Below, in pieces: positions 6,679 to 24,196 of a stretch of DNA of 64,000 nt. The stretch's first letter is position 1. Every line of letters starts with the position of its first letter. The DNA comes from an uncultured Eubacteriales bacterium (GTDB lineage: Bacteria > Bacillota > Clostridia > Oscillospirales > Acutalibacteraceae): assembly GCA_964369225.1 (NCBI GenBank), contig CAYJER010000005.1, positions 14,396-78,395 of the forward strand, read 5' to 3'. The notes beneath the pieces were generated by a model. That model was given only the letters and a program-made list of their open reading frames with translations, made no database searches and had not been told where the DNA came from. A program made the translations under genes and the position numbers.

Positions 6679-6700
6679 CCTTTCGAATTGATTTAGTTTG

Positions 6701-7243: not shown

Positions 7244-7267
7244 TTTTGTACCTGCTTTCTATTATTT

Positions 7268-7621: not shown

Positions 7622-7651
7622 TTCATCACCTCTCGTTGCTTTGATTTTCTA

Positions 7652-7686
7652 TTTATAATTTTAGCACAAATTATAAAACTTGTCAA
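7652..7686 (-). promoter_or_regulatory. Promoter (TTGACA-17 nt-TAAAAT with a TG extension) overlapped by a perfect 10-bp inverted repeat, a candidate operator
   Basis: On the minus strand the -35 is at 7686-7681 and the -10 at 7663-7658. The inverted repeat TTTATAATTT-6 nt-AAATTATAAA spans 7652-7677. Confidence 0.5.
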
Positions 7687-7716
7687 TCAAAAAACAAGAA
7701 AGATAAAACACAAAAA

Positions 7717-7764
7717 ACGAGAAAATTTATCTCGAAATTTTCATAAGAGATAAAATTTTCTCGT
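7717..7764. terminator. AT-rich 17-bp inverted repeat with U-tracts on both strands, a likely terminator of the mcrBC-Shedu-like operon
   Basis: ACGAGAAAATTTATCTC (7717-7733) pairs with GAGATAAAATTTTCTCGT (7747-7764). On the minus strand it is followed by TTTTTTG. Confidence 0.5.
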
Positions 7765-7783
7765 AATTTTTTAGCACTGTTTC

Positions 7784-7930
7784 AGTGCGTGGCTTCCACA
7801 ATTTATTGTGGGGTTTTAGGGTTTGGGATGCGTCCCAACAAGCGAGCAAGTAGGTGTGTGGGTGACCACACGCCCTGCTTGCTCGGCAAGAGTGTGTAGC
7901 CACTTGCCCTGCTTGCTAAGTTTGCAAGTC
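7784..7930. other. GC-rich multi-hairpin non-coding segment (function unknown)
   Basis: At least five consecutive hairpins, for example GCACT-5-AGTGC, CCACAAT-2-ATTGTGG, TGGGA-4-TCCCA and GAGCAAG...GTGTGG-4-CCACAC...CTTGCTC. A direct repeat GCCCTGCTTGCT occurs at 7872-7883 and 7906-7917. The local GC content is far above the flanks. Confidence 0.5.
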
Positions 7931-7933
7931 AAA

Positions 7934-9124
7934 TTAAAGCTCTAAGGCAAGAAGCATATTTTTAAGACGTTTTAGTAAGTCATCGTATGTAATGATATCA
8001 ACAATATTTTTATATTGTCGTTTTATAATTTCAAAATCATATTTTTGATTTTCTGTCAAATCATCGCTTCTGCCCATAATAAGAAACCCTTGTGGATTCA
8101 TAACGCGGATAGGTGTATCCATTTTCATTTCTTTAGATAAAGATTTTTCCAAATTTTCTTTTGGTTTACATTCAGTGTTTAAAATGTAAAGATATTTTTC
8201 AATTTGTACTATTGCACCTGTTAAATCTCTATCTGGAACATGGTTATTCCTATATTCTCCATTAGTCAATAATTTTATTTTGTTTGGTTTTTTTATTTCA
8301 AGTATATCAACGAAGCCATTTACATCAACAATGATAAAATCAGGTTTTTTATTGTGTCTACCATCATCACCTACATTGCATTCTCGCCTTGAAAAAATAT
8401 ATTTTGGAAAAACAATTCTTATTATATCGTTAATGAATTCTTGCCAATCCTTCTCTGTGTAAACATCACAATTTGCAAGCATATTTTCGAACTTATCTAA
8501 GGTAACAGTTAAAATTTCTTTTTGTAAAGGCTTGATATCGGTATAGAGGGTAGCGTGCGAATGTGGAGTTTTTTTATCAATATACCTATTGAATTCTATC
8601 TCTAAATTTCCTAAACCATCAAAGAAATTTCTAAGTATATTAGATATTCTCACATTGGCATATTTTTTCAATTCATAGGTGTTAGGGAACGTGCTTATCA
8701 TTGACATAAACTCATTGATTGGTAGATTTACTTTCTTATCATCTACATTTCCAATATAAATATCTTCACTTACAAGATTGTTAATTTTACGCATAATAGA
8801 TATGCGTTCTTGAGCTACAAACATTTTTATAATAATTTTAATATCTTTGTGAATATAAACGTCATTGTTTGTACTTAAGATTTCTTTTGAAAACAAGTAA
8901 TATTCTCCAATTAGAGTGGCAACTTTAAATCTTAATGTATCCTCATATTCGTTCATTAGTTCTTCAGATAAATCTTCAACCAAATCGCTTTCGCTAAAAC
9001 AAAAGCAATACTTTACATTGAAATATCCATCCTCTGCTATTTTTTGACGAATGCCGTCACACCCATTAAATGGACTATATTGCAATAATAAAGTATTTTC
9101 GTTTTTTATAAATTCAATACTCAT
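7934..9124 (-). CDS. Shedu-like (SduA / DUF4263-type) PD-(D/E)xK nuclease with an uncharacterised N-terminal domain
   Basis: 396 aa. The C-terminal half carries EKDWQEF, KKPDFIIVDVNGFVDILEIKKPN (the D...E-x-K core), QIEKYLY and a terminal ITYDDLL. The start ATG at 9124 is 1 nt after the mcrC stop, and the RBS AGAGGAGA lies inside mcrC. Confidence 0.65.
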   Translation of the reverse strand: MSIEFIKNENTLLLQYSPFNGCDGIRQKIAEDGYFNVKYCFCFSESDLVEDLSEELMNEYEDTLRFKVATLIGEYYLFSKEILSTNNDVYIHKDIKIIIKMFVAQERISIMRKINNLVSEDIYIGNVDDKKVNLPINEFMSMISTFPNTYELKKYANVRISNILRNFFDGLGNLEIEFNRYIDKKTPHSHATLYTDIKPLQKEILTVTLDKFENMLANCDVYTEKDWQEFINDIIRIVFPKYIFSRRECNVGDDGRHNKKPDFIIVDVNGFVDILEIKKPNKIKLLTNGEYRNNHVPDRDLTGAIVQIEKYLYILNTECKPKENLEKSLSKEMKMDTPIRVMNPQGFLIMGRSDDLTENQKYDFEIIKRQYKNIVDIITYDDLLKRLKNMLLALEL

Positions 9125-9125
9125 C

Positions 9126-10184
9126 TCATTCTCCTCTTGAAAACAATCGCTTAACTAGAACTTTTAACTGATTTTCAATCTCTAAAAAATCTCTGTTTAA
9201 ATCCAAACTCCTAATCTCAATCCGATTACCACCCATACTAAACTTTGCGTCTGGTGTAACTTCTTCGTCAGTTTTTGCATACAAAAGCATACCACTTACA
9301 TTACCTTTGTTATCCATATCCTTATTCTTCACATAAGTGAAAATTTGATAAAGATTGTGTGAGTGAAAAGTTTGCTTATTGCCGAACTGACTTGTTGCCA
9401 TACTTCTTGAATAATATTTTGCGTCGATAATAAGTGTGTGTATTCCGTTAGAAATCATAATATCTGACTGCATTTTAGGCAAGAACGAAACATATTCATT
9501 ATCGCTTTCAATATCCCACTCTATTTGCGAAGAAGACACTTTAAATTCTGGAAAATGTTTTTTATAATACTCTAAAATGAATTTTTCATATAGCCTTGAC
9601 ATTCTCTGTTCATCGAGGAATTTTTGCATTTTCATATCGCCATTTGCATCTTTTTGTAGCAGTCCTTTTATAACTAAATAGCAAATAGAAGTAAGCATTT
9701 GATAGCTTTGATTATTACGATTAAAACGAATATTCCAGTCAATAGTATATGGATTTAAAGTATCTACATCTTTGAAGTACATCATCAAGTTTTTAAGGTC
9801 TTTTTTCACTTGTGTTTTGATTTTTTCTCGAAGCAATATGTTAACAGTTGTCTTTATAATCTGATTAAGTTTAGTATTAACTGAAAATTCATCATAGCTA
9901 CAAACAAGCTGTTTTCGGAGCATAGTTTGTCCTTTGATTGAATGTGCAATATCAATTTTCTCACGCAAAGTAGCGAGTGGCTCAGTAATTGGAATATACT
10001 CTTTCCCAAGCCCTCTTTTAACTTGAAGTGCAATACCTTTAGCTAAAATTGCTGACAGTAAATCGGCTGTATTTTCAAAATCTTCACTCGCTAATTTCTC
10101 ATATCCATCATTTTTTAGAACAGAAAAAGCATAGGCAAGCATATAGTAAATATTTTGAATTCTTATTCCGTTTTCGGTAATCAT
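9126..10184 (-). CDS. mcrC: McrC-like nuclease subunit of a McrBC type IV restriction system
   Basis: 352 aa, which is the expected size. PD-(D/E)xK motif SDIMIS...LIIDAKYY. Its start overlaps the mcrB stop (ATGA at 10181-10184). Confidence 0.75.
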   Translation of the reverse strand: MITENGIRIQNIYYMLAYAFSVLKNDGYEKLASEDFENTADLLSAILAKGIALQVKRGLGKEYIPITEPLATLREKIDIAHSIKGQTMLRKQLVCSYDEFSVNTKLNQIIKTTVNILLREKIKTQVKKDLKNLMMYFKDVDTLNPYTIDWNIRFNRNNQSYQMLTSICYLVIKGLLQKDANGDMKMQKFLDEQRMSRLYEKFILEYYKKHFPEFKVSSSQIEWDIESDNEYVSFLPKMQSDIMISNGIHTLIIDAKYYSRSMATSQFGNKQTFHSHNLYQIFTYVKNKDMDNKGNVSGMLLYAKTDEEVTPDAKFSMGGNRIEIRSLDLNRDFLEIENQLKVLVKRLFSRGE

Positions 10185-12598
10185 ACTATCGCCCCTCGAA
10201 GTTTAGCTGTCCATTCCTCAACCCTACTGTTTTCATCGAACCAATATTCTTGCAACAGTGGTACTATTTCATAATTTACAACTGTTTGAAGCCAAGCATC
10301 ATCTATCACATCGTTTTCACTGCTTATAAAATAGCTGTGTCCTATTCTGAACCCACCACCTAAACTAACATCATCTTTTATTACATTATTAAGTTGTTTA
10401 ATAACTTCAATTAGCTTATCAAACTTAGGATTTGAAATGTTTTCTTGATAGTTTTTAAATCCGTCACTATTAAATGCTGGCTCTATTTCGAAAAACGCAA
10501 AACGACGACGAAGTGCATAATCAAGCATAGCAAGGCTTCTGTCAGCTGTATTCATCATACCGATAATATGTACATTTGACGGAATATAAAACTGCTCATC
10601 AGCATAAAGAAGTCGCATAGAATTACGCTCATCACGCTTATCGTGTTCGATTAACATAAACAATTCACCAAAGATTTTGGATAAATTACCACGATTTATT
10701 TCATCAATAATGAAGAAATAATCTCTCTCATTATCGTCCTGAGCTTCTTTACAGAACTTATAAAATGCACCATAATGAAGCTTAAATCCACTATTATCTG
10801 GACGATAACCCATTATAAAATCTTCATAAGCATAGCTTTGATGAAATTGTATCATCTCTACTCGGCTTGTATCACGCTCACCCATAATTGAATATGCAAG
10901 TCTTTTAGCAGCATAAGTTTTACCCACACCTGGAGCACCTTGTAAAATGATATTTTTCTTTCTGCTTAAAAGAGTAGTCAATGTTTCATAGTTTTCTTCG
11001 CTCATATATACTTGGGATAGGAAATTTTCTTTAGTATAAGGTAGGTATACAGTCACTTCATCATCTTCAATTATTTCACCATCATTAGTAAATAGAGTTT
11101 CTAATTTTTCTACATATTCAGTATATTGTGTAATATCTGTAAGTGTTTTTTGTACTGCCTGTCCTGGGTGTTCCCATTCACCTTTATGCGTCCAGTCAAT
11201 TTTTCTAGTATGCTTATATTCATTTCGTGTTTCATCATAAATATACTCAGATGTCACAATTCCTCTGCCTAAAACAGTTGAATAACCTCGCTTAACAATA
11301 ACAACATCACCAACATTCATTGAGTTTGCAAACTGCCATGATGCTAATGAGTCGTTTTTAAATGATTTTTCTTCACCTGATAGATTACGCATAGTAGTAA
11401 TTATTTCTTCTCGTGAACTGTAATCTTCTAAATCACCTAAATCATCCCAACCTATACCCATTATTTTATCTTGATAGAATTCATCCCAAAGCCTTGCTTG
11501 TTCACCAGGTGAGTATAGCCAATAACGTTTTTTTGAAATTGACTCATCATTAAATACTTTATCTGAATTATAACTCAAAAGAAATTTGTCAATTATATCT
11601 TTCAATTCCTCTTTTGAAGTTTCTTTATAATTAGTATAGATATCATAAAGATTTTTGTTTTTCTTCTCAATAGTTTGTTGATAATAACCTTTTCTACCAT
11701 TATCAAAATAAGGGTCAAATGTGTCCTTATATTGTTTTAGAGTGTTGTATTTAATACCACTTACTTCAGATGCTTTTTTCATATCATTGCTACAATTAGT
11801 TTTATATTCTTCATCAGAACTATGTAATCTTGCGTAATATAAGCACACTAGCGTAGCGAGGGTCTTATTAGATTCAGTAACACCGTTACTCCAAGCAAAG
11901 TGTGACATTTCTGGAAATGACGAAAATGGGTATTGTCCACTTTTAAATAGCACTTGGCATTGATTGCACATGGATATATATTCCTCACCTGTTGGAACAA
12001 AGCCTTTTACTATTTTTGGAAAAATGTCTACAACGCTTTTCATGTCATTATCTTCGTTATTTAAGAATGCTCTATTTTGTCCATCTAGGTTTAGAAATTT
12101 ATAAGGACGCATCCAGAAGAGTCCCATAGTGATTGTTGCTAACCCATTGCCTTTAGCATTCACTGCATTTTCAAATGAAGAAAATAATTCTTCATTAGCT
12201 ACGCCTGTATTTGCAAAGATAATTGCTTGTTGAAATAATTCCCATATTTCCGATGTCCCACCAAAGAACGCATTTTGGTTATTCATAGTTGGTATACCAT
12301 CAAATTCAGTAGGAACTTTAGACTTAAGATTAAATTGTTCCACATATAAATTTGCTATTTCAGTCCTATTCTCAGGCTTCAAAGCGCGACTGAATGTGGC
12401 AAAAATACTAAAAGGATCAATACAGTAATTTCTATCGCTCCACCAATCATCACGCTCAAAATGCAAATATTCGAGCTTTGTATGTTTTGAAACAAGATTC
12501 TTCATTATTTCAAATAGTTCATTTCTCTTATCTTTATATTCTAATAGTTTATCTGCCAATTCTTCGTAAAATGGTATCCAGTCAAATTTGTTTTCCAT
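10181..12598 (-). CDS. mcrB: McrB-like AAA+ GTPase with a long (~530 aa) N-terminal extension
   Basis: 805 aa. Walker A GAPGVGKTY, Walker B FFIIDEINRGNLSKIFGEL, and McrB signatures MNTADRS and RRRF. The N-terminal region includes a PUA/EVE-like block (YWLYSPGE...GIGW...VGDVVIVKRG). Confidence 0.8.
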   Translation of the reverse strand: MENKFDWIPFYEELADKLLEYKDKRNELFEIMKNLVSKHTKLEYLHFERDDWWSDRNYCIDPFSIFATFSRALKPENRTEIANLYVEQFNLKSKVPTEFDGIPTMNNQNAFFGGTSEIWELFQQAIIFANTGVANEELFSSFENAVNAKGNGLATITMGLFWMRPYKFLNLDGQNRAFLNNEDNDMKSVVDIFPKIVKGFVPTGEEYISMCNQCQVLFKSGQYPFSSFPEMSHFAWSNGVTESNKTLATLVCLYYARLHSSDEEYKTNCSNDMKKASEVSGIKYNTLKQYKDTFDPYFDNGRKGYYQQTIEKKNKNLYDIYTNYKETSKEELKDIIDKFLLSYNSDKVFNDESISKKRYWLYSPGEQARLWDEFYQDKIMGIGWDDLGDLEDYSSREEIITTMRNLSGEEKSFKNDSLASWQFANSMNVGDVVIVKRGYSTVLGRGIVTSEYIYDETRNEYKHTRKIDWTHKGEWEHPGQAVQKTLTDITQYTEYVEKLETLFTNDGEIIEDDEVTVYLPYTKENFLSQVYMSEENYETLTTLLSRKKNIILQGAPGVGKTYAAKRLAYSIMGERDTSRVEMIQFHQSYAYEDFIMGYRPDNSGFKLHYGAFYKFCKEAQDDNERDYFFIIDEINRGNLSKIFGELFMLIEHDKRDERNSMRLLYADEQFYIPSNVHIIGMMNTADRSLAMLDYALRRRFAFFEIEPAFNSDGFKNYQENISNPKFDKLIEVIKQLNNVIKDDVSLGGGFRIGHSYFISSENDVIDDAWLQTVVNYEIVPLLQEYWFDENSRVEEWTAKLRGAIV

Positions 12599-12628
12599 TA
12601 TAATTCCTCCTAAATTTTATATTATTTA

Positions 12629-13300
12629 TTAAATTACTTCTTTCAAACTCCTAAAATACCTCTCCATCTCCCTAATTGCATTATCCATCTGAACATTAGC
12701 GATAACATCATTTTCAACTGCAAAATACCCATGTTTATTAAGCAGTTCTTTAGCTTTTTCAATCTCGTGGGCATTATTTACCCTTAAAAACTCTCGTTGC
12801 TCATTATGACTCAACTTGTTCATAAACTCGGCAAATAGGCTGTGTTTAACCTTTTCTAGCATATAATCAAAGCTAATACTTTTGATAAAATCATCAATAA
12901 TCGCAGTATCTCGCTGAAAACTTAGCTTTGTATTACCATTTTCTTCTGAAACTTGCTTGTAATGGATTAGTTTATCAATCGTTTCTTCGGACAAACCAAG
13001 TTGTTCGGCTATATTTTCATATTCGGTTTTGCGTGTATCAGAGTTTCCTAGCAGAAAATCCACCGAAACATCGTAAAAATCAGCAAATGCAACTAAATAT
13101 TCGATGCTCATACTACTTGTTCGCCCAAAAAGTGGGTGGTCTGGGTCGGAAATTTCGTAATTTTTCAAATTAGTGTGGCTGATATACACTTCTTTTTCAG
13201 CTAAAGCCTTTGAAAGTTCAAGAAATGTTAGTTTTCGTTCTTTTCTAAGCTCCATCAAGCGTTTTTTAGTGAGATATGCTCGTTCTTCGTTGTATTGCAA
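12629..13300 (-). CDS. XRE-family HTH regulator with an uncharacterised C-terminal domain (TTG start)
   Basis: 223 aa. N-terminal HTH (LTFLELSKALAEKEVYISHTNLKNYE). A GGAGG RBS lies 8 nt before the TTG. It sits immediately upstream of mcrB. Confidence 0.7.
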   Translation of the reverse strand: MQYNEERAYLTKKRLMELRKERKLTFLELSKALAEKEVYISHTNLKNYEISDPDHPLFGRTSSMSIEYLVAFADFYDVSVDFLLGNSDTRKTEYENIAEQLGLSEETIDKLIHYKQVSEENGNTKLSFQRDTAIIDDFIKSISFDYMLEKVKHSLFAEFMNKLSHNEQREFLRVNNAHEIEKAKELLNKHGYFAVENDVIANVQMDNAIREMERYFRSLKEVI

Positions 13301-13514: not shown

Positions 13515-13688
13515 ATGATTATTAGCAAAACTAAAAAATCAAATAACACTATTCCAAAACACGAGCTAGAAAGTTTAGCTCGTGTTTTGCTTCCCTCAAT
13601 AAGAGAATTTTTTAATAGCGAAGAAGGTAGGCGAGAATTTGAGGAGTGGAAAAAGCAGAAAGAACAAGTATCAGCCGATATAGGTTGA
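13515..13688 (+). CDS. Small hypothetical protein (57 aa) at the right end of the island
   Basis: This ORF is not in the supplied track because it is under 60 aa. It has ATG with RBS AGAAAGAGG and translates as MIISKTKKSNNTIPKHELESLARVLLPSIREFFNSEEGRREFEEWKKQKEQVSADIG. A terminator follows. Confidence 0.4.
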   Translation: MIISKTKKSNNTIPKHELESLARVLLPSIREFFNSEEGRREFEEWKKQKEQVSADIG

Positions 13689-13740
13689 TACTTGCTCTTT
13701 TTCTATGTTGATGTATAAATCTTTAAATATAAAGCAAAAA

Positions 13741-13788: not shown

Positions 13789-13864
<76 letters not shown>

Positions 13865-13929: not shown

Positions 13930-13958
13930 TTGACAAATTAATATTTTTATTGTATACT
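13930..13958 (+). promoter_or_regulatory. Promoter candidate for the glnA-like operon (TTGACA-17 nt-TATACT)
   Basis: Consensus -35 at 13930-13935 and -10 at 13953-13958. Confidence 0.55.
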
Positions 13959-14070
13959 TGTCACATGAGAACAATGGCGTTCATCAAATAAAGGTAAGGA
14001 GGCTTCCGCTTTTTTGCTATATTTGGTGGACGCTTTTTTAACGTTTATTTTAGAAAGAAGGTTATACAGT

Positions 14071-15381
14071 ATGAAAAGTACTGCCAATCAGGTGCTGGAA
14101 TTCATAAGGGAAAACGATGTAAAATTTATTAGACTGGGTTTTTGTGATCTTTTAGGTGTACAAAAAAATATCTCTTTATTGTCAGATGAATTAGAGTCAG
14201 CTTTTGAGAATGGTGTTCCTTTTGATGCCTCATCAATTCTGGGCTTTAGAGATTCAAGACAGTCTGATTTATTGTTGTTTCCTGATCCATCAACACTTAC
14301 TGTTTTGCCGTGGAGACCTGATCCCGGTAGAGTAGTTAGATTTTTCTGTGATATAAAAATGCCAAACGGTGAGTATTACAAACACAACAGCAGATATATA
14401 TTAAAAAACACGCTAAAAAATTGTACCGACCTTGGTTATAACTGTAGGGTAGGATCTGACTGTGAGTTTTATCTTTTCAAAACCGATGATAATTCCGAAC
14501 CTACCTATAACACACTAGATTACGGTAGCTACCTTGATATTTCACCTCTTGATAAGGGTGAAAATATTAGACGTGAAATTTGCCTAAACTTAGAAGAAAT
14601 GGGATTAATGCCTGAAACTTCTCACCATGAAAAAGGCCCTGGACAAAATCAAATTGACTTTAAGTCAAGCGATGCCCTAAGTTGTGCCGATAACTTTTTA
14701 ACATTTAAATCGGTTGTCAAGGCTATTTCAGCTAGAAACGGTCTATACGCTTCTTTCATGCCAAAACCTCTTGAATATGAAAGTGGTAGCAGTCTTAGAA
14801 TTAATATCACTCTAAGCCAAAAAGGGCATAATGTGTTCGGTAATCAGCACGATGAAATTGCAGAAAGCTTTATTGCTGGTGTCATGGAAAAAGCAGCCGA
14901 AATATCTTTATTTCTATCTCCTATCATGAATTCATATGATAGATTAGGAAAACTAAATGCACCAAGATACGTCACATGGTCTCACCAAAACAGAGCGCAA
15001 TTAATTAGAGTTCCACTAGCTTCAAAAGACAAAATCAGAATGGAGCTACGATCAGCCGACCCAACTATTAACCCTTATCTAGCATTCTCTTTAATAATTG
15101 AGGCAGGTCTTTACGGAATTAAAAATAACTTGAAACTTGTAGAGGCAATCGACATAGACTTAAACACAGCCACTAAAGATATTCTAGAAACAATCGATAT
15201 GCTACCAAAAGATATATACGAAGCTGTAAAACTTGCGGAAAACTCTAGTTTTATCAAAGATGTTTTAGGCGAAAGTTTATTAAACAAGTATATTAGCATA
15301 AAAAAAGAGGAAATTGATAATTACGAAAAAGCAGAAAATAAGAAGAATTTCATAACTAAAAAATACTTTTATTATTATTAA
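14071..15381 (+). CDS. Glutamine synthetase type I-like protein with substitutions at catalytic and metal-ligand positions
   Basis: 436 aa counted from ATG 14071 (RBS GAAAGAAGG); the track start at 14014 is a TTG extension. The GS fold motifs FDASS, CEFYLF, SHHE, NRAQLIRVP and ELRSADPTINPYLA are present. However GQHEIDF is replaced by GQNQIDF, NGSGMH by SGSSLR, and GYEAP by KLNAP. Confidence 0.75.
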   Translation: MKSTANQVLEFIRENDVKFIRLGFCDLLGVQKNISLLSDELESAFENGVPFDASSILGFRDSRQSDLLLFPDPSTLTVLPWRPDPGRVVRFFCDIKMPNGEYYKHNSRYILKNTLKNCTDLGYNCRVGSDCEFYLFKTDDNSEPTYNTLDYGSYLDISPLDKGENIRREICLNLEEMGLMPETSHHEKGPGQNQIDFKSSDALSCADNFLTFKSVVKAISARNGLYASFMPKPLEYESGSSLRINITLSQKGHNVFGNQHDEIAESFIAGVMEKAAEISLFLSPIMNSYDRLGKLNAPRYVTWSHQNRAQLIRVPLASKDKIRMELRSADPTINPYLAFSLIIEAGLYGIKNNLKLVEAIDIDLNTATKDILETIDMLPKDIYEAVKLAENSSFIKDVLGESLLNKYISIKKEEIDNYEKAENKKNFITKKYFYYY

Positions 15382-15389: not shown

Positions 15390-15971
15390 GTGGTAACCAT
15401 AGAATCTGCATTAATCGTTTCAGCTACCGAGAAAGCAACAACTTATATTTCAGATACTCTAAAAGAGTTCTATGTAAAAAGAATAGTATGTGTCGGAACT
15501 TGTGGCGAAGCTCGCAGACTGTTGCCACAGCAAGACTTTGACTTAGTAGTTATTAATTCTCCGTTAAAAGATGAAACAGGTGAAAAATTATCTGAATATA
15601 TTGCTACCCGAAACCAAAGCCAAGTTATCATATTAGTAAAGGCTGAGCTTTACGAGGCAGTTTCAGAAAAAGTAGAAAACCATGGTGTCATAGCAGTAGC
15701 TAAACCAATTAATAAAAGTATGTTCTGGTTTTCTTTAAAGCTTGCAAAGGCAGCCCAAAAAAGGCTTTCAATGATGCAGGCAGAAAAACGCAAACTTGTA
15801 CAAAGAATAGAAGATATTAAGATTGTAGACAGAGCTAAACATATGCTTATCTCTTATCTTAGTATGTCAGAGGAAGAAGCCCACAAATATATAGAACGTC
15901 AGGCGATGGACACAAGGGCTACAAAAAGATCAATAGCTGAGGAGATATTAAAAATATATGAAATCCATTGA
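15390..15971 (+). CDS. ANTAR-domain RNA-binding antiterminator with a pseudo-receiver domain
   Basis: 193 aa. C-terminal ANTAR helices (IVDRAKHMLISYLSMSEEEAHKYIERQAMDTRATKRSIAEEIL). The N-terminal REC-like fold lacks the acidic pocket (ALIVSATEK) and the phospho-acceptor Asp (DLVVIN). The start codon is uncertain: a GTG abuts the RBS. Confidence 0.75.
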   Translation: MVTIESALIVSATEKATTYISDTLKEFYVKRIVCVGTCGEARRLLPQQDFDLVVINSPLKDETGEKLSEYIATRNQSQVIILVKAELYEAVSEKVENHGVIAVAKPINKSMFWFSLKLAKAAQKRLSMMQAEKRKLVQRIEDIKIVDRAKHMLISYLSMSEEEAHKYIERQAMDTRATKRSIAEEILKIYEIH

Positions 15972-17367
15972 TAAATTGCATGAAGAATGTGCCGTTTTTG
16001 GTGTAAGCGTTAATAATCACGAAGCTGCAGGCATAACCTACAATGGTTTGCTTGCATTACAACACAGAGGACAAGAAAGTAGTGGAATAGCAGTTAGCTG
16101 TGACAATAATATTTTATATCACAAGAATACAGGATTAGTACAAGAAGCGTTCAACAACAAAGTTTTATCTAAATTGCCTAAAAGTGGCGTAGCCGTAGGA
16201 CATAACAGATACTCCACAACAGGCTCAAACGTTGCCGAAAATGCAGGACCTTTTATAACCGAATTTTTAACAGGAAGAATAGCAACTGCACATAACGGAA
16301 ACGTAACCAACGCAAAAAAAATTAAAGATAGACTGCAAACTTTAGGTTTAAAATTCATGGCAACAAGCGACAGCGAGGTTGTTTCGTCTTTGATAGCCTA
16401 TCACGCCGTAAGAGAAGAAGACATAGTAAAAGGAATAATTAAGGCATCTAAAGAACTAACAGGCGCTTTTTCACTTGTTATTTTATCTGGTGAAAAATTA
16501 ATTGCCGTTAGAGACCCAAACGGTTTTAGACCACTCTGCATTGGAGAAAACGAAGACGGAATGGTAGTTTCCTCTGAAAGCTGTGCGCTTGATAGCTGTG
16601 GTTTTAAATTTATTAGAGATGTTAGCCCTGGCGAAGTAATAGTAATAGAAAAAGGTAAAATTACTTATTCAGAAACAGTTCTTGATAACAAGATTGATTG
16701 TTGTGGAATTTGTATTTTCGAGTATGTATACTTTGCAAGACCAGACAGTATCATTGATGGTCTTAGCGTATATAAGGCTCGTTATAACATGGGTGCAAGA
16801 CTAGCCCACGAATACCCAGTTGAAGCGGATGTTGTCTGCGGAGTTCCAGACAGCGGACTAGAAGCTGCCATAGGCTACAGTGCTACTAGCAAAATCCCAC
16901 TGGTTTCAGGCTTTGTTAAAAACCGTTATATTGGCAGGAGCTTTATCTACCCTACTCAATCACAACGTGAAAGTGCTGTTAAGCTAAAACTTAATCCACT
17001 TTCTGTAAATGTTAAAGATAAGAGAGTAGTCTTAGTTGATGACTCTATTGTTAGAGGAACTACCATAGCAAAAATTGTGAACAACCTTAAAAATGCAGGG
17101 GCTAAAGAAGTTCACTTAAGAATTTCTTCACCACCATTTAAATATACATGTCACTATGGAACAGACGTTGACAGCGAAGAAAATTTAATAGCTAACCAAA
17201 TGAGCATAGACAGCATATGCAAATCAATTGGAGCAGATAGCCTAGGCTATATCAGTGTAAACGGAATTAAAATAGCATGTAATGATAGTTCTCTACCTTT
17301 CTGCACAAACTGTTTCTCTGGAGAAATGAGAGAAATAGATACCGCTAAAAAATCTGATTTAGAATAA
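15958..17367 (+). CDS. purF: Amidophosphoribosyltransferase (glutamine-PRPP amidotransferase)
   Basis: 469 aa. Propeptide plus catalytic Cys (HEECAVFGV), the PRTase motif VVLVDDSIVRGTT, and four Cys that align with the [4Fe-4S] ligands (CIFEY, TCHYG, CTNCF). Confidence 0.85.
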   Translation: MKSIDKLHEECAVFGVSVNNHEAAGITYNGLLALQHRGQESSGIAVSCDNNILYHKNTGLVQEAFNNKVLSKLPKSGVAVGHNRYSTTGSNVAENAGPFITEFLTGRIATAHNGNVTNAKKIKDRLQTLGLKFMATSDSEVVSSLIAYHAVREEDIVKGIIKASKELTGAFSLVILSGEKLIAVRDPNGFRPLCIGENEDGMVVSSESCALDSCGFKFIRDVSPGEVIVIEKGKITYSETVLDNKIDCCGICIFEYVYFARPDSIIDGLSVYKARYNMGARLAHEYPVEADVVCGVPDSGLEAAIGYSATSKIPLVSGFVKNRYIGRSFIYPTQSQRESAVKLKLNPLSVNVKDKRVVLVDDSIVRGTTIAKIVNNLKNAGAKEVHLRISSPPFKYTCHYGTDVDSEENLIANQMSIDSICKSIGADSLGYISVNGIKIACNDSSLPFCTNCFSGEMREIDTAKKSDLE

Positions 17368-17376
17368 AAAATGACA

Positions 17377-17408
17377 AAATCGAAACCGCCAAAAACGGTT
17401 TCGATTTT
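17377..17408. terminator. Bidirectional intrinsic terminator between purF and the zinc-ribbon gene
   Basis: AAAATCGAAACCG-7 nt-CGGTTTCGATTTT. Confidence 0.7.
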
Positions 17409-17438
17409 ATCTTTCCTCTTAATCTGTTAAACGATTAA

Positions 17439-17711
17439 TTATTGTCTTGATTTTGCAAAACAATCGCTGCAATAAACAGGGCGATCTTCACGTGGTTTAA
17501 ATGGAACTACTGCCTCATTACCACACTCTGCACAAGTAGCTGTGAAACGCTCACGCTCAGGTTTTGCTGTAGCTTTACGGTTTGTACGGCAAGATTTGCA
17601 TCTTTGTGGCTCATTTACGAAGCCTTTTTCTTGATAAAATTCTTGCTCTCCAGCAGTGAATGTAAATTCTCCGCCACAGTCTTTGCATGTTAAATTCTTG
17701 TCCTCGAACAT
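17439..17711 (-). CDS. Zinc-ribbon protein (two CxxC pairs, twice)
   Basis: 90 aa counted from ATG 17711 (RBS AGTGAGGT). Motifs CKDCG...CKSCR and CAECG...CSDCF. The track start at 17768 is probably an N-terminal over-extension. Confidence 0.55.
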   Translation of the reverse strand: MFEDKNLTCKDCGGEFTFTAGEQEFYQEKGFVNEPQRCKSCRTNRKATAKPERERFTATCAECGNEAVVPFKPREDRPVYCSDCFAKSRQ

Positions 17712-18199
17712 TTGTTGTACCTCACTTTGAGTAATATTATATTTTTTAAGGCTTTGCCTTAAAACCATTGTAATTTAAGCCATTAAAGCTTAGAAAAATT
17801 CTCTAACCGCTTTAAATTCCACTAATACATTTTGGTAACAACAAATATATCCGCATTGATTAAAAACAGTTTCTAATTCTCCTCAAATTTCAGGAATACC
17901 GAAATATTACAATAAATTAATTTTATTGTAACTACTAATTTAGTATACACTATAAACACAACATAGTCAAGCTTTTTGACAAAATTTTATTATTCTACAA
18001 CAAAAAAATTGTATTATTTGAAGTTGAATTAAAATACTTTATATAAACCAATCAAAATTTGCATAAATTAGTGTAAACTAGTTCATTTTTCAACTTTATT
18101 TTAGTTAGCAAAGAAGAAAAAACTCTTGAATTATTCCTAATTTACTGGTACAATATACATATAACATATCATATTAATCAAAAATATTGGAGGGATATT

Positions 18200-19211: not shown

Positions 19212-20120
19212 TTAATCTATATTCTTACAATAATCAAGGCAGATATACCCACTAGGAGTTCTGCCCCAGCTCCCACGAACCTCACTAACATCACAAACCA
19301 TTCCTTTTACATAACCGTTTGCTTTATATTTTGCTAAATTCATAATTTGTGATTGTGCGTTTTGGCTTAAATTTTCAAACCTTTTCCAACCTGAATTAAC
19401 AGTAGGCTCTTCTCTAACTGTTAAAACATTCGCTGTAACTATGTATCTTCCTGTGCTATATACTGTTTCTTCTGTTTCATTTGTTGGAGGAATTGAAGTT
19501 TCTAAACTAAGATTAACTAATAGTTCTGCATTTAATAGATAATTTGTATCACCTGTATATCCAGGTACAGTTCCTCTGTCGCTATTTTGCCAAAGGTCAT
19601 AATCCTGTGCATCATCTACACTATCATAATAATATGCCAGCCACTGAAAATACTTAAGTCTGTCTCGAACGCCCTCACCTTTAATAAGGTTAAGCCTTGA
19701 TCTATAGTCAGTGTTATAATAAATTCCAGCTTTATAGCCAGCCTTTCTAATCTTGTCCATAAAAGCCATTGCCATCGCTTCAAATAGTTTTTTATCTACA
19801 GATACACCATTTTGCAAGGCGTATCTGTTGCTGTCATATTCCCAATCAAAAAAAATCGGAAGTGTAGGATTAACATTATATTTTTTAAGCACAGATAAAA
19901 CAAAGTCTGCCTCTAGTTCTGCCCCACCTACAGAATAGGCATATGAGAAATGATATAACCCAAATGGAAATTTGCAGTTTTTAAGGTTATGAGACAGGCA
20001 ACCGTCTTCATAACCTTTTCCAAAACCTATTCTAAAAATAGCGAAATCGCATTCAATTTTTTCCCAATTTACTTTTCCGTTGTGTTCAGATAAATCTATT
20101 CCTTTTTTATACATCCTCAA
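19212..20120 (-). CDS. Endolysin: GH25-type muramidase with a C-terminal SH3-like cell-wall binding domain
   Basis: 302 aa. GIDLSEHNGKVNWEKI...GLYHFSY at the N-terminus. The C-terminal part (YIVTANVLTVREEP...GWGRTPSGYICLDY) looks like SH3_3. Confidence 0.75.
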   Translation of the reverse strand: MRMYKKGIDLSEHNGKVNWEKIECDFAIFRIGFGKGYEDGCLSHNLKNCKFPFGLYHFSYAYSVGGAELEADFVLSVLKKYNVNPTLPIFFDWEYDSNRYALQNGVSVDKKLFEAMAMAFMDKIRKAGYKAGIYYNTDYRSRLNLIKGEGVRDRLKYFQWLAYYYDSVDDAQDYDLWQNSDRGTVPGYTGDTNYLLNAELLVNLSLETSIPPTNETEETVYSTGRYIVTANVLTVREEPTVNSGWKRFENLSQNAQSQIMNLAKYKANGYVKGMVCDVSEVRGSWGRTPSGYICLDYCKNID

Positions 20121-20388
20121 TTTCCTTTCTTGGTGTTTTATATTCCATAGCCTGTTCAGTATCCCCTAGTCCATTTGTAGTAGGATCGTTTATAACTCCC
20201 ATTATTATCAATACTGAAAACGCTGCATTTACAAAGGTGAGTATTTTAGCCTGTAAATCACCTAGATTCAATTGCACATCAAATATTGCTAATCCTACCT
20301 GCACCAGAACTAAAAGTGCTGGTATGAACGAAATCCAGAAATTCTTATTTTTAAATCTAACTAACCAATTTACCTTCATCAAAATCAC
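20107..20388 (-). CDS. Holin (phi-LC3 / holin_1-like)
   Basis: 93 aa. NWLVRFKNKNFW, two TM segments, and the motif INDPTTNGLGDTEQAMEY. It overlaps the endolysin start. Confidence 0.7.
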   Translation of the reverse strand: MILMKVNWLVRFKNKNFWISFIPALLVLVQVGLAIFDVQLNLGDLQAKILTFVNAAFSVLIIMGVINDPTTNGLGDTEQAMEYKTPRKEIEDV

Positions 20389-20405
20389 CTAGATACCTTT
20401 CTTTT

Positions 20406-20666
20406 CTATATATTATGTATATTCTTCTTATTGTGTTCCTCAATTCTTATAAGTCGTGCCTCATGGTCTTTAATTTCATTCCGCAAAGCCTTTATATCAT
20501 ACTTAATCTCATTAAGTCCATTAGAAATCCCCTCTAGTTTAACTATAATCATTGTAATTTCTTGAGTTTCACCCTTTGTGTCTTTTTTAGAACCACGCCA
20601 AATTCCTACAAAAGAAAAACACATCGATGCAATTATAGCCGTGACAGGGACTATTATCTCCCACAT
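20406..20666 (-). CDS. Small membrane-anchored coiled-coil protein, lysis-module accessory (XhlA-like?)
   Basis: 86 aa with one N-terminal TM and a coiled coil. The call rests mainly on its position upstream of the holin. Confidence 0.4.
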   Translation of the reverse strand: MWEIIVPVTAIIASMCFSFVGIWRGSKKDTKGETQEITMIIVKLEGISNGLNEIKYDIKALRNEIKDHEARLIRIEEHNKKNIHNI

Positions 20667-20675
20667 ATAAACACC

Positions 20676-20942
20676 TCAAATCATATCGACAACAAAATAA
20701 AGCTGACCTCCATCCTGCCGAACAATCGCAAACTTGTCGCCTACTTTAACGGACTGTGTCTCAAAAAGGTTTGTCACCGTCTTAGACATCACACAAAAAT
20801 CACTACCTATCATTAAGTTTGTTCCAAGGTTAAAGCTAATCGGATAAAGGCTAACTAATTCAGCAAAAATTAGTTTAGTTAAACTTTCTGCCTTTACGGC
20901 TTCTAAAGCCATTCTCTTAATTATAGATGCTATATCACCCAT
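20676..20942 (-). CDS. XkdR-like (DUF2577-type) small tail/baseplate protein in a non-canonical position
   Basis: 88 aa. The C-terminal motif VKVGDKFAIVRQDGGQLYFVVDMI resembles the XkdR family. Confidence 0.4.
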   Translation of the reverse strand: MGDIASIIKRMALEAVKAESLTKLIFAELVSLYPISFNLGTNLMIGSDFCVMSKTVTNLFETQSVKVGDKFAIVRQDGGQLYFVVDMI

Positions 20943-22186: not shown

Positions 22187-22197
22187 AATGCTCCTTT

Positions 22198-22623: not shown

Positions 22624-22627
22624 TTAC

Positions 22628-24194: not shown

Positions 24195-24196
24195 AT

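What the first reader, a model, noticed from the sequence alone, without database searches (positions are those of the whole stretch)
14071..15381. Glutamine-synthetase-like protein with three catalytic or metal-ligand substitutions
The protein aligns by eye along its whole length with type I GS, from the FDASS region through NRAQLIRVP to ELRSADPTINPYLA. Three positions that are essentially invariant in active GS are changed:
- the metal-ligand Glu in GQHEIDF is Gln (GQNQIDF, codon 14650-14652);
- the metal-ligand His in NGSGMH is Arg (SGSSLR, codon 14797-14799);
- the flap Glu in GYEAP is Asn (KLNAP, codon 14956-14958).

The PROSITE-type ATP signature K-P-..-G-x-G-x-H is therefore broken.

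**Inference.** The protein may be a catalytically impaired GS paralogue that acts as a ligand sensor or regulatory partner. Known analogies are GS-TnrA/GlnR in Bacillus and AmiC-AmiR. Its likely partner is the ANTAR protein encoded 8 nt downstream.
Basis: partly seen in the sequence, partly recalled or inferred. Interest (0 to 1): 0.65.

Follow-up and report, generated by a model that had tools for sequence, protein, structure and literature searches.

The report
Disabled glutamine synthetase paired with antiterminator
A look-alike of the enzyme glutamine synthetase has lost key catalytic residues yet sits, intact, just upstream of an RNA-binding antiterminator gene, and comparison with about 170 relatives suggests that this protein family's lasting job is to report nitrogen status to that regulator rather than to make glutamine.

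Summary
The 436-aa ORF at 14071-15381 is a full-length type I-alpha glutamine synthetase (GS) homologue. It carries five active-site changes, given here in E. coli numbering: E129D, E220Q, G267S, H269R and E327N.

It belongs to a Clostridia family of about 439 aa. In every locus where downstream DNA was available, the GS-like gene is followed by an ANTAR antiterminator gene.

- **Partner protein.** The ANTAR protein's receiver domain never has the phospho-acceptor Asp.
- **Operon leader.** The operon starts with a conserved 5' hexaloop hairpin that competes with a terminator.
- **Recurrent loss.** 45 of 174 family members have changed at least one of 11 key residues. Flap-Glu loss needs at least 13 events and metal-ligand loss at least 7.
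- **Selection.** dN/dS stays at 0.02-0.10 in clades that lost these residues.
- **Second GS.** A type III GS is encoded next door in at least 30 relatives.
- **Ligand pocket.** The 2-oxoglutarate pocket known from Methanosarcina mazei GS is nearly invariant in the family and intact in the window protein. The glutamine-feedback Arg is absent.

Best reading: a catalytically disabled GS that acts as the sensor partner of the ANTAR protein, probably for 2-oxoglutarate. Binding, ligand and loss of activity are all inferred. The window lineage is a singleton, with the closest relative at 66% identity.

The parts
13930..13958 (+). Sigma-70-type promoter (TTGACA-17-TATACT) of the operon
   Evidence: It matches 11 of 12 consensus positions. 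Relatives have an equivalent -10 box 7-10 nt upstream of the conserved hairpin.
13969..13982 (+). 5'-terminal leader hairpin GAAC-AATGGC-GTTC (hexaloop with A at position 1 and G at position 4); presumed ANTAR binding site and antiterminator
   Evidence: - The motif GAAC-RANGGY-GTTC occurs once in the window.
- It occurs once, on the sense strand, in 26 family loci and in none of the distant-GS loci.
- A1 and G4 are the hexaloop positions that matter for ANTAR recognition (PMC3369931).
13976..14040 (+). Intrinsic terminator (long helix 13976-14034 plus T-run 14035-14040). Its 5' arm is the 3' half of the hexaloop plus the 3' arm of the hairpin, so the two structures are mutually exclusive.
   Evidence: - The fold has dG -33.6 kcal/mol and z -4.4.
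- The same architecture appears in 28 of 30 leaders.
- The lower stem is paired in at least 24 of 28 leaders, with several pair types at about 8 positions.
14071..15381 (+). GS-like protein (436 aa), predicted catalytically disabled; proposed sensor subunit
14458..14460 (+). Codon D130 (n2 metal ligand Glu to Asp; E. coli E129, B. subtilis E132)
   Evidence: The family column reads E in 170 of 174.
14650..14652 (+). Codon Q194 (n1 metal ligand Glu to Gln; E. coli E220, B. subtilis E196)
   Evidence: The family column reads E in 170 of 174.
14791..14799 (+). Codons S241-L242-R243 (G-x-H becomes S-x-R; n2 ligand His to Arg; E. coli G267 and H269)
   Evidence: The family columns read H in 172 of 174 and G in 168 of 174.
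14956..14958 (+). Codon N296 (flap Glu to Asn; E. coli E327, B. subtilis E304)
   Evidence: The family column reads E in 138 of 174.
15390..15971 (+). Pseudo-receiver + ANTAR antiterminator (193 aa)
   Evidence: - Pfam ANTAR matches at E 1.2e-14. Response_reg scores below its cut-off.
- The phospho-acceptor Asp is replaced by Asn (DLVVINSPL against Rv1626 DLVIMDVKMP).
- The same position is never Asp in 57 homologues.
15958..17367 (+). purF (amidophosphoribosyltransferase, 469 aa); overlaps the ANTAR gene by 14 nt and is the only non-regulatory cargo of this operon
   Evidence: - TIGR01134 scores 494 bits against a cut-off of 350.
- The same ANTAR-purF overlap is seen in L001, L124 and L126.
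17373..17411 (.). Bidirectional terminator that closes the operon

Best explanation
The gene encodes a folded GS type I-alpha homologue that can no longer make glutamine. It is kept as the signal-sensing partner of the ANTAR antiterminator encoded immediately downstream.

**Proposed mechanism**
1. Transcription starts a few nucleotides before a conserved 4-6 bp hairpin with an A..G hexaloop.
2. Unless that hairpin is held, its 3' half is drawn into a long intrinsic terminator, and transcription stops before the GS-like gene.
3. The ANTAR protein cannot be phosphorylated. It binds the hairpin and allows read-through into the GS-like gene, its own gene and purF.
4. The GS-like oligomer controls how much ANTAR protein is free, by protein-protein contact, as AmiC controls AmiR and NasS controls NasT.
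5. The most likely ligand is 2-oxoglutarate, bound in the inter-subunit pocket known from archaeal GS I-alpha, rather than glutamine.

This module is ancestral to a large Clostridia family. There it normally heads a GOGAT - GS-like - ANTAR - (purF) - carAB operon beside a type III GS gene. The window copy is a trimmed version, and its enzyme function has gone furthest towards loss.

**Shown**
- The substitutions.
- The synteny.
- The pseudo-receiver.
- The hairpin/terminator architecture.
- Recurrent residue loss under purifying selection.
- Conservation of the 2-oxoglutarate pocket.

**Inferred**
- Loss of activity.
- GS-ANTAR binding.
- ANTAR-hairpin binding.
- The ligand.
- The sign of regulation.
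For: **1. Catalytic site**
- Three of six metal ligands, a conserved Gly and the flap Glu are changed.
- All substrate- and ATP-binding Arg residues and D50' are retained.
- The NCBIfam GlnA equivalog scores 375.5 bits, below its 429.15 cut-off. The closest relative scores 436.

**2. Not a decaying gene**
- The ORF is intact.
- The other 7 deviations at conserved columns are conservative.
- Divergence is only mildly raised. Mean identity to outgroups is 51.2%, against 51.9-57.3% for its nearest relatives.
- The ANTAR gene shows no such difference.

**3. Synteny**
- Among the Clostridia GS loci from GTDB species representatives, all but three have an ANTAR gene 20-100 nt downstream, and those three run off the contig.
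- The same holds in metagenome loci.
- Three of three ANTAR homologues looked up lie directly after a 438-439 aa GS-like gene.

**4. Pseudo-receiver**
- The acceptor position is N in 41 of 57 and never D.
- There is no acidic pair in beta1.
- No histidine kinase gene lies next to the operon.

**5. Catalysis is dispensable in the family**
- 45 of 174 sequences have changed at least one of 11 key residues.
- Flap-Glu loss needs at least 13 events and metal-ligand loss at least 7.
- dN/dS is 0.02-0.10 in clades lacking these residues, the same as in intact clades.

**6. A second GS is available.** A type III GS gene lies beside the cluster in at least 30 relatives.

**7. Leader RNA.** The A1/G4 hexaloop rule for ANTAR comes from PMC3369931.

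**8. Ligand pocket**
- The equivalents of M. mazei F24, R26, R87, R172, R173 and S189 (PMC11957540) are F19, R21, R82, R167, R168 and S184 in the window protein.
- In the family these positions are 92.5-100% conserved, against 79% for the flap Glu.

**9. Literature**
- C. thermocellum has the same cluster: Clo1313_2030 REC-ANTAR, 2031 type I GS, 2032-2036 GOGAT (PMC4676874, PMC9888227).
[quoted passage not shown]' (Rydzak 2017) is cited there. I could not read it.
Against: - **No direct evidence of contact.** Nothing here shows a GS-ANTAR contact. Adjacency could reflect co-regulation only.
- **Most members look like enzymes.** About three quarters of family members keep every catalytic residue and may simply be working enzymes.
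- **RNA target is atypical.** The leader has one conserved hexaloop hairpin, not the dual hairpin defined for ANTAR targets. A second hairpin was found in 9 of 27 leaders against 6.4 expected by chance.
- **A DNA operator is not excluded.** The hairpin sequence is also a DNA inverted repeat at the transcription start.
- **Singleton lineage.** The closest relative is 66% identical, so conservation of these particular substitutions cannot be tested, and dS is saturated.
- **Trimmed, exposed locus.** The locus has no GOGAT, GSIII or carAB and lies between a defence island and a prophage. That is compatible with relaxed selection.
- **Flap Glu matters in Bacillus.**
  - In B. subtilis the flap Glu takes part in glutamine feedback (PMC10799026).
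  - My recollection, not checked here, is that it is also needed for TnrA control.
  - Its frequent loss here argues against a Bacillus-like mechanism.
- **Pocket mapping.** The 2-oxoglutarate pocket was mapped by sequence alignment only.
Confidence: 0.55

Rival explanations
1. A decaying remnant. After the ancestral nitrogen cluster was broken up, with GOGAT, GSIII and carAB lost from this locus, the GS-like gene came under relaxed selection. It is accumulating inactivating substitutions on the way to becoming a pseudogene and has no sensor role.
For: - The locus is trimmed and is flanked by a tRNA gene, a Shedu/McrBC island with a serine recombinase, and a prophage.
- The window protein deviates more from conserved columns than its close relatives: 12 against a median of 2.
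- It is a singleton lineage, so purifying selection on this branch cannot be shown.
- The extended stem of the leader hairpin is interrupted by a 2-nt insertion.
Against: - The 436-codon ORF is intact, with a good RBS, promoter and terminator switch.
- Non-conservative changes are confined to the active site, and the others are conservative.
- Acceleration is mild and equals that of flap-less relatives.
- Other lineages lacking the same residues are under strong purifying selection.
- All 2-oxoglutarate-pocket and substrate-binding residues are retained.
- The R243 and N296 codons are at least two steps from their ancestral codons. The changes are therefore old, yet no frameshift or stop codon has followed.
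Confidence: 0.15
2. Still an enzyme. The protein keeps GS or a related gamma-glutamyl ligase or transferase activity through a remodelled site: Asp and Gln can still bind metal. It lies next to the ANTAR gene only because both belong to a nitrogen-regulated operon, and the ANTAR protein receives its signal elsewhere.
For: - Most family members keep all catalytic residues, and the closest relative passes the GlnA equivalog cut-off.
- E to D and E to Q are chemically mild changes.
- Substrate- and ATP-binding arginines are retained.
- GS-like enzymes with other amine substrates are known. PDB hits include glutamate-methylamine ligase 9qur and the type III glutamate-ammonia ligase 7cql.
Against: - His to Arg removes an n2 ligand and puts a positive charge in the metal site.
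- G to S alters the conserved G-x-G-x-H loop.
- The flap Glu, described as required for catalysis in PMC10799026, is Asn.
- Together, two of the three n2 ligands and one n1 ligand are changed.
- The pseudo-receiver has no other candidate input encoded nearby.
Confidence: 0.15
3. A non-catalytic regulator, but with a different partner or signal. One version is a glutamine-bound, Bacillus-style feedback state. Another is a subunit that modulates the type III GS, PurF or a PII protein. In either case the ANTAR protein is controlled independently.
For: - Precedents exist for GS binding TnrA/GlnR and GlnK/sP26.
- purF is translationally coupled to the module.
- A GSIII gene is adjacent in relatives.
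- An Arg lies one position before the feedback-Arg site in about half of the family.
Against: - The gene order GS-like then ANTAR is the only invariant pair. purF, carAB, GOGAT and GSIII are each absent from many loci.
- The feedback Arg itself (B. subtilis R62, M. mazei R66) is Asp, Asn or Glu in the family.
- No MerR-type GlnR/TnrA gene was seen beside the operon.
Confidence: 0.15

Closest known systems
Clostridial glnA-nitR type modules (C. acetobutylicum nitR antiterminator; C. thermocellum Clo1313_2030 REC-ANTAR / 2031 type I GS / 2032-2036 GOGAT)
   Same: - The gene order is the same: GS type I followed by a REC-ANTAR gene inside a nitrogen-assimilation operon (PMC4676874; PMC9888227).
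- The closest relatives of the window locus have the full GOGAT - GS - ANTAR - purF - carAB layout.
   Different: - The GS here has lost three metal ligands and the flap Glu.
- The window operon carries only purF as cargo.
- In the papers I could read, no role of the GS as the ANTAR protein's sensor is stated. The signal for NitR-type regulators is described only as possibly sensitive to ammonia.
AmiC-AmiR (Pseudomonas aeruginosa) and NasS-NasT (Paracoccus denitrificans): ANTAR antiterminator held by a co-encoded ligand sensor
   Same: - An ANTAR output domain is joined to a receiver-like domain that is not phosphorylated (PDB 1qo0 AmiR matches at E 1.5e-5).
- A co-transcribed partner is proposed to sequester or release it (PMC3369931; PMC3795266).
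- The target is a leader hairpin upstream of a terminator.
   Different: - The partner here has a GS fold and presumably forms a dodecamer. It is not a periplasmic-binding-protein-type sensor.
- The leader has one conserved hairpin at the very 5' end, not two.
Bacillus subtilis GS as trigger enzyme for TnrA and GlnR
   Same: A GS type I-alpha acts as the nitrogen-status sensor that controls a gene regulator by direct binding (background knowledge). 4lnf is a strong homologue, E 3e-100.
   Different: - The partner there is a MerR-type DNA-binding protein, and the GS stays fully active.
- Sensing there uses glutamine, the flap Glu304 and Arg62 (PMC10799026).
- Here the equivalents are Asn and Asp, and the partner binds RNA.
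2-oxoglutarate-activated archaeal GS I-alpha (Methanosarcina mazei GlnA1, Methanothermococcus thermolithotrophicus GS)
   Same: - This is the closest solved structure, E about 2e-108.
- All six residues that contact 2-oxoglutarate are conserved in the window protein and nearly invariant in the family.
- The position that blocks the pocket in bacterial GS is small (Ser or Ala) in this family.
   Different: - Those proteins are active enzymes in which 2-oxoglutarate switches catalysis on.
- Here catalysis is predicted to be lost, and the pocket would serve signalling only.
Lengsin / GLULD1 (vertebrate lens GS-like pseudoenzyme, PDB 2j9i)
   Same: It is a GS-I-like dodecamer that kept the fold but lost enzyme activity (background knowledge). 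It gives a weak PDB match, E 2e-4.
   Different: It is a eukaryotic structural or chaperone-like protein with no known regulatory partner, and is only distantly related.

Membership tests
Catalytically competent type I glutamine synthetase (GlnA, EC 6.3.1.2) | Gln-synt_N beta-grasp domain plus Gln-synt_C catalytic domain over the full length | tested here: met
   Pfam E-values are 4e-25 and 3.9e-92. PDB GS homologues align over residues 3-420.
Catalytically competent type I glutamine synthetase (GlnA, EC 6.3.1.2) | Score at or above the NCBIfam TIGR00653 GlnA equivalog cut-off | tested here: not met
   The window protein scores 375.5 bits against a cut-off of 429.15. The closest relative, P0002, scores 436.1.
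Catalytically competent type I glutamine synthetase (GlnA, EC 6.3.1.2) | Six metal ligands (E129, E131, E212, E220, H269, E357 in E. coli numbering) | tested here: not met
   E129D, E220Q and H269R are changed. E131, E212 and E357 are kept.
Catalytically competent type I glutamine synthetase (GlnA, EC 6.3.1.2) | Flap Glu (E. coli E327, B. subtilis E304) and the G-x-G-x-H ATP-region signature | tested here: not met
   KLNAP replaces (G)FEAP, and SGSSLR replaces SGSGLH.
Catalytically competent type I glutamine synthetase (GlnA, EC 6.3.1.2) | Substrate- and ATP-binding residues D50', R321, R339, R344, R359 | tested here: met
   D52, R291, R308, R313 and R327 are present.
Catalytically competent type I glutamine synthetase (GlnA, EC 6.3.1.2) | Measured biosynthetic or transferase activity | not testable with these tools
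   This needs purified protein.
Clostridial GS-like / pseudo-receiver ANTAR nitrogen module | GS-I-like gene immediately followed on the same strand by a REC-ANTAR gene | tested here: met
   The gap is 8 nt in the window. This is the rule in family loci, and the reverse check held in 3 of 3 look-ups.
Clostridial GS-like / pseudo-receiver ANTAR nitrogen module | Receiver domain without the phospho-acceptor Asp | tested here: met
   N56 lies in DLVVINSPL. The position is N in 41 of 57 homologues and never D.
Clostridial GS-like / pseudo-receiver ANTAR nitrogen module | Leader with the GAAC-hexaloop-GTTC hairpin overlapping a terminator | tested here: met
   The element lies at 13969-14040. It is shared with 26 or more family loci.
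Clostridial GS-like / pseudo-receiver ANTAR nitrogen module | GOGAT genes upstream, and GSIII or carAB in the cluster | tested here: not met
   None is present in the 64-kb window. They are present in most relatives, and this feature is variable within the family.
ANTAR antiterminator with separate sensor partner (AmiC/AmiR, NasS/NasT type) | ANTAR domain | tested here: met
   PF03861 matches at E 1.2e-14. PDB 1s8n, 6wsh and 1qo0 also match.
ANTAR antiterminator with separate sensor partner (AmiC/AmiR, NasS/NasT type) | Dual hexaloop-hairpin RNA target, with the terminator overlapping the second hairpin | tested here: not met
   Only one conserved hairpin was found. A second A..G hexaloop hairpin occurs in 9 of 27 leaders against 6.4 expected by chance. 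Rfam gave no match.
ANTAR antiterminator with separate sensor partner (AmiC/AmiR, NasS/NasT type) | Physical, ligand-dependent complex between sensor and ANTAR protein | not testable with these tools
   This needs biochemistry or complex modelling.
GS trigger enzyme of the Bacillus type (GS-TnrA/GlnR) | Glutamine-feedback Arg of the Asp50' loop (B. subtilis R62, M. mazei R66) | tested here: not met
   The window has D61. The family column reads D 120, N 22 and E 8 of 174.
GS trigger enzyme of the Bacillus type (GS-TnrA/GlnR) | A MerR-family GlnR/TnrA partner | not tested
   None was noticed next to the operon. The only neighbouring regulator is an XRE-like protein in the defence island. The rest of the genome is unavailable.
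2-oxoglutarate-binding GS I-alpha (archaeal type) | Pocket residues equivalent to M. mazei F24, R26, R87, R172, R173 and S189 | tested here: met
   F19, R21, R82, R167, R168 and S184 are present.
2-oxoglutarate-binding GS I-alpha (archaeal type) | Measured 2-oxoglutarate binding or response | not testable with these tools
   This needs ITC, DSF or mass photometry.

The most novel reading that the evidence does not exclude
Across Oscillospiraceae, Lachnospiraceae, Christensenellales and related Clostridia, the type I GS-like protein is the dedicated 2-oxoglutarate receptor of NitR-type pseudo-receiver ANTAR antiterminators.

On this reading catalysis is an optional extra that has been discarded many times: at least 13 events for the flap Glu and at least 7 for metal ligands. 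The window protein is the most advanced case among close relatives, a metal-free pseudoenzyme in which an Arg replaces the His ligand of the n2 metal site. This would be a GS-plus-RNA-binding-protein partner switch, a combination not described so far.
Probability: 0.4. Interest if true: 0.8.

Novelty: new variant of a known kind. Interest (0 to 1): 0.62.

Why it matters
ANTAR regulators control nitrogen genes in many bacteria. For the clostridial NitR type, which has an unphosphorylatable receiver, the signal input is unknown in the papers I could search.

If the adjacent GS-like protein is that input, three things follow:
- **The open question becomes testable.** The ingredients are two proteins, one 80-nt RNA and a short list of ligands.
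- **A reported phenotype gains a possible explanation.** The title of Rydzak et al. 2017 states that deleting the type I GS of C. thermocellum 'deregulates nitrogen metabolism'. That strain is of biotechnological interest.
- **The module is widespread in gut anaerobes.** It was found in loci assigned to Gemmiger, Subdoligranulum, Butyricicoccus, Roseburia and Christensenella.

The family also offers a natural series running from active enzyme, through flap-less protein, to metal-site-less pseudoenzyme. That series could be used to study how a trigger enzyme becomes a pure sensor.

Tried and rejected
- **Closer relatives.** I looked for relatives that would show whether the substitutions define a clade. 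The best matches were 66% in the 5.8-billion-protein search, 65% in GTDB genomes and 61% in JGI metagenomes. The lineage is a singleton.
- **Rest of the contig.** A look-up of the window protein, meant to read the remainder of its 85-kb contig, found nothing on record.
- **dN/dS on the window branch.** dS is saturated against the nearest relatives.
- **Rfam.** At gathering threshold only three tRNAs were found, with no known leader family.
- **Second ANTAR hairpin.** A second hexaloop hairpin, as in the canonical dual-hairpin target, is no more frequent than in shuffled sequences.
- **Other nitrogen genes.** There is no other GS, GOGAT or carA in the window.
- **Further leader copies.** No further copy of the leader hairpin occurs in the window.
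- **Rydzak et al. 2017.** The paper is not held. Only its title and citing text were used.
- **Literature on GS pseudoenzymes with ANTAR.** No such paper was found.
- **Phylogeny.** A Biopython NJ tree timed out. I used a UPGMA tree for the parsimony counts instead.
- **Sequencing error.** Rejected. There are five separate codons, and two of them need at least two nucleotide changes.
- **Longer ORF from TTG 14014.** Rejected. It lies inside the terminator, and homologues start at the ATG.
- **Structure prediction.** Not run. At E 1e-108 to solved GS structures it would not add to the argument, and the tool cannot model complexes.
Full report
**1. The observation**

The ORF at 14071-15381 (+) encodes 436 aa with both GS domains: Pfam Gln-synt_N at E 4e-25 and Gln-synt_C at E 3.9e-92. 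It aligns end to end with solved GS type I-alpha structures. The best are Methanosarcina mazei GlnA1 (8ufj/8s59/8tfb, E about 2e-108) and Bacillus subtilis GS (4lnf, E 3e-100).

- GQHEIDF becomes GQNQIDF (Q194, CAA, 14650-14652).
- NGSGMH becomes SGSSLR (R243, AGA, 14797-14799).
- GYEAP becomes KLNAP (N296, AAT, 14956-14958).

Two more active-site changes were missed:
- The second n2 metal ligand is Asp instead of Glu (SDCEF, D130).
- The second Gly of the G-x-G-x-H loop is Ser (S241).

In E. coli numbering the set is E129D, E220Q, G267S, H269R and E327N. In B. subtilis numbering it is E132D, E196Q, G243S, H245R and E304N. The B. subtilis offsets follow from the gaps in the alignment.

D50', E131, E212, R321, R339, R344, E357 and R359 are all retained. 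The R243 codon (AGA) is at least two steps from a His codon, and the N296 codon (AAT) is two steps from a Glu codon. These are old evolutionary changes, not read errors.

The ATG at 14071 is the right start. The longer TTG ORF listed begins inside the leader terminator, and homologues are 438-440 aa.

**2. How unusual the protein is within its family**

The 119 closest proteins in the 5.8-billion-sequence collection are 59-66% identical. Nearly all read AECEF, GQNEIDF, SGSGLH or SGNGLH, and FEAP.

I merged these with proteins from GTDB species representatives to give 174 distinct sequences.
- The window protein deviates at 12 of 138 columns that are at least 93% conserved. The median is 2, and it ranks fourth.
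- The non-conservative deviations are all in the active site (E130D, E194Q, G241S, H243R), together with S247T.
- The other seven are conservative: F to Y, A to S (twice), L to M, N to S, S to A, and I to V.
- The enrichment is 5 of 14 active-site columns against 7 of 124 others (Fisher p = 0.003).

Mean identity to outgroup members is 51.2% for the window protein. It is 57.3% for its nearest relative with intact residues (L001), and 52.8, 51.9 and 54.2% for relatives that also lack the flap Glu. The adjacent ANTAR proteins show no such difference, at 37.9% against 37.4-40.0%.

The picture is a mild, GS-specific acceleration with targeted remodelling of the catalytic centre. It is not general decay.

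The NCBIfam GlnA equivalog scores 375.5 bits, below its 429.15 cut-off. The closest relative scores 436.1.

**3. The surroundings**

The window is chromosomal. It carries gyrB/gyrA-like genes, pcrA, fatty-acid synthesis genes and groEL.

The operon reads as follows:
- Promoter, 13930-13958.
- Leader.
- GS-like gene.
- ANTAR gene, 15390-15971.
- purF, 15958-17367 (TIGR01134, 494 bits).
- Bidirectional terminator, 17373-17411.

Upstream lie a tRNA-Ala gene on the opposite strand (13789-13864) and a defence island. The island carries a serine recombinase, a Shedu SduA gene, McrC and a McrB-like AAA_5 gene. A prophage lies downstream; its GH25 lysin is at 19212-20120 and its SPP1-type portal at 32448-33812.

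No other GS, GOGAT or carA gene is present in the 64 kb.

**4. The gene pair is a family rule**

In the closest relative (L001, 66% identity) the cluster has this order:
- Five split glutamate synthase (GOGAT) genes.
- The GS-like gene.
- The ANTAR gene.
- purF.
- carA and carB.

In Scatolibacter rhodanostii a type III GS gene lies divergently beside the GS-like and ANTAR genes.

Among the 57 Clostridia loci from GTDB species representatives, 54 have an ANTAR gene 20-100 nt downstream of the GS-like gene. The other three run off the contig. Metagenome loci behave the same way. In the reverse direction, three of three ANTAR homologues that I looked up lie directly after a 438-439 aa GS-like gene. 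One is in the complete genome of Paludicola sp. MB14-C6.

A GSIII gene lies within 7 kb in at least 30 loci. These organisms therefore usually have another GS beside this one.

C. thermocellum has the same layout: Clo1313_2030 REC-ANTAR, 2031 type I-alpha GS and 2032-2036 GOGAT, plus three type III GS genes elsewhere (PMC4676874; PMC9888227).

**5. The partner cannot be phosphorylated**

Aligned to Rv1626 (1s8n), the window ANTAR protein reads DLVVINSPL where Rv1626 reads DLVIMDVKMP. That position is N in 41 of 57 family members and never D, and the acidic pair of beta1 is missing. Pfam Response_reg scores below its cut-off. No histidine kinase gene is adjacent.

Ramesh et al. describe pseudo-receiver ANTAR proteins as a class expected to be regulated by a modulator protein, with AmiC-AmiR as the example (PMC3369931).

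**6. The leader**

Right after the -10 box the transcript begins with GAAC-AATGGC-GTTC (13969-13982). The motif GAAC-RANGGY-GTTC occurs once in the window. It also occurs once, on the sense strand, in 26 family loci, and in none of the distant-GS loci. It lies either directly upstream of the GS-like gene or about 5 kb upstream, at the head of the GOGAT genes.

The hexaloop has A at position 1 and G at position 4. These are the positions important for ANTAR recognition.

In 28 of 30 leaders the 3' half of the loop plus the 3' arm of the hairpin forms the 5' arm of a long terminator helix ending in a T-run. In the window this is 13976-14034 plus T6, with dG -33.6 kcal/mol and z -4.4.

The lower stem is paired in at least 24 of 28 leaders, with several pair types at about eight positions. 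Those pairs were read from per-sequence MFE folds, which favours pairing. The two structures are mutually exclusive, which is the logic of an antitermination switch.

This leader differs from the published ANTAR target in having no consistent second hexaloop hairpin. One was found in 9 of 27 leaders against 6.4 expected by chance.

**7. Catalysis is dispensable in this family**

- The flap-Glu column in 174 sequences reads E 138, K 14, D 8, S 5, A 3, N 2, Q 2, G 1, T 1.
- Metal ligands are changed in 11 sequences.
- 45 of 174 sequences have changed at least one of 11 key residues.
- On a UPGMA tree, flap-Glu loss (not counting E to D) needs at least 13 events and metal-ligand loss at least 7.
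- One relative, L029, has the same SGSSLR motif as the window. L047 and L051 combine E131K with E220Q. Scatolibacter has E212K, E327N and R339S.

Within clades that lack these residues, dN/dS is 0.02-0.10, the same as in clades with intact residues. The protein is therefore kept for something other than, or in addition to, making glutamine.

**8. What it may sense**

The residues that hold 2-oxoglutarate in M. mazei GlnA1 are F24, R26, R87, R172, R173 and S189 (PMC11957540). Through the gapless part of the alignment they map to F19, R21, R82, R167, R168 and S184 of the window protein.

In the family these columns read F 174/174, R 161 plus K 11, R 173, R 174, R 174 and S 172. That is more conserved than the flap Glu. 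The position where bacterial GS carries a blocking Glu (PMC10799026) is Ser or Ala in this family.

In contrast, the Arg needed for glutamine feedback inhibition (B. subtilis R62, M. mazei R66) is Asp in the window and Asp, Asn or Glu in the family.

On sequence grounds, 2-oxoglutarate is the likelier ligand. It is the standard signal of nitrogen limitation.

**9. Proposed mechanism**

The shown and inferred steps are listed under the best explanation. In short: the ANTAR protein binds the 5' hairpin and prevents the terminator from forming. The GS-like oligomer binds the pseudo-receiver ANTAR protein and sets how much of it is free, according to 2-oxoglutarate occupancy.

In the window lineage the enzyme function is gone and the sensor remains, controlling itself, the ANTAR gene and purF. 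The His-to-Arg change removes the His ligand of the n2 metal site. Whether the Arg side chain fills that site, or the E-to-Q and E-to-N changes offset the loss of the two cations, was not tested; no coordinates were examined.

**10. Comparison with known systems, and novelty**

The gene layout is known from C. thermocellum and C. acetobutylicum. Regulation of an ANTAR protein by a partner sensor is known from AmiC/AmiR and NasS/NasT. GS acting as a trigger enzyme is known from Bacillus. 2-oxoglutarate binding by GS I-alpha is known from methanogens.

I did not find the following described in four literature searches:
- The combination of a GS-like sensor with an RNA-binding pseudo-receiver antiterminator.
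- The recurrent loss of catalytic residues in that GS family.
- The single-hairpin leader.

I rate the finding a new variant of a known kind.

The main limits are that no interaction, ligand binding or activity was measured, and that the window lineage has no close relative.

Noticed in passing
window 13930-14040: The operon leader lies outside the finding's coordinates. It has a promoter, a conserved 5' hexaloop hairpin (GAAC-AATGGC-GTTC) and an overlapping long terminator. It is shared with 26 or more related loci, and there is only one hairpin instead of the two of the published ANTAR target.
   Followed up: yes
window 15958-17367: purF overlaps the end of the ANTAR gene by 14 nt and is the only enzyme gene left in this nitrogen-type operon. 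The catalytic Cys is residue 11 of the product, so ten residues precede it. The same ANTAR-purF overlap is seen in L001, L124 and L126.
   Followed up: partly
window 5113-13300: A defence or mobile island lies directly upstream of the tRNA-Ala gene. It carries a large serine recombinase (5113-6678), Shedu SduA (7934-9124), McrC (9126-10184), a McrB-like AAA_5 protein (10181-12598) and an XRE-like regulator (12629-13300). It occupies the place where relatives carry GSIII and GOGAT genes.
   Followed up: partly
window 13515-13688: A 57-aa ORF with a good RBS and its own terminator (13665-13694) lies between the XRE-like gene and the tRNA-Ala gene. Its function is unknown.
   Followed up: no
window 19212-35093: A prophage lies on the minus strand. 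It includes a GH25 lysin (19212-20120), small holin-like ORFs (20107-20666), a 414-aa protein of unassigned function next to them (20942-22186) and an SPP1-type portal (32448-33812). GC skew is strongly negative across the region.
   Followed up: partly
window 17439-17768: A 109-aa protein with two treble-clef zinc-finger domains (zf_Tbcl, zf_Tbcl_2) is encoded convergently with purF.
   Followed up: no
window 35685-42503: A low-GC stretch (about 29-30%) carries a GGDEF protein (35685-37328) and a PAS-GGDEF-EAL protein (40284-42503). It is followed by tRNA-Thr and tRNA-Ser genes at 42723-43022.
   Followed up: no
L038, L039, L043, L045, L046, L048-L050, L075, L095, L097, L098: One clade has the flap Glu fixed as Lys (EKKAP or HKAP). 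Most members are C-terminally shortened to 397-404 aa, and one is 424 aa. Loci are assigned to Gemmiger, Subdoligranulum, Ruminococcus and Acutalibacteraceae. Each gene is still followed by an ANTAR gene wherever downstream DNA was available (L049 runs off its contig), and the tested pairs give dN/dS of 0.03-0.10.
   Followed up: partly
L053, L054, L099: These GS-like genes are heavily degenerate, with D50N, R339G, R344H, E357Q or R359A. Each is still followed by an ANTAR gene. They are the far end of the loss series.
   Followed up: no
L030 11478-11527: In this locus the leader hairpin and terminator lie downstream of the GS-like/ANTAR pair, just ahead of a carA-like gene. The same switch can therefore head other operons, which hints at a regulon.
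   Followed up: no
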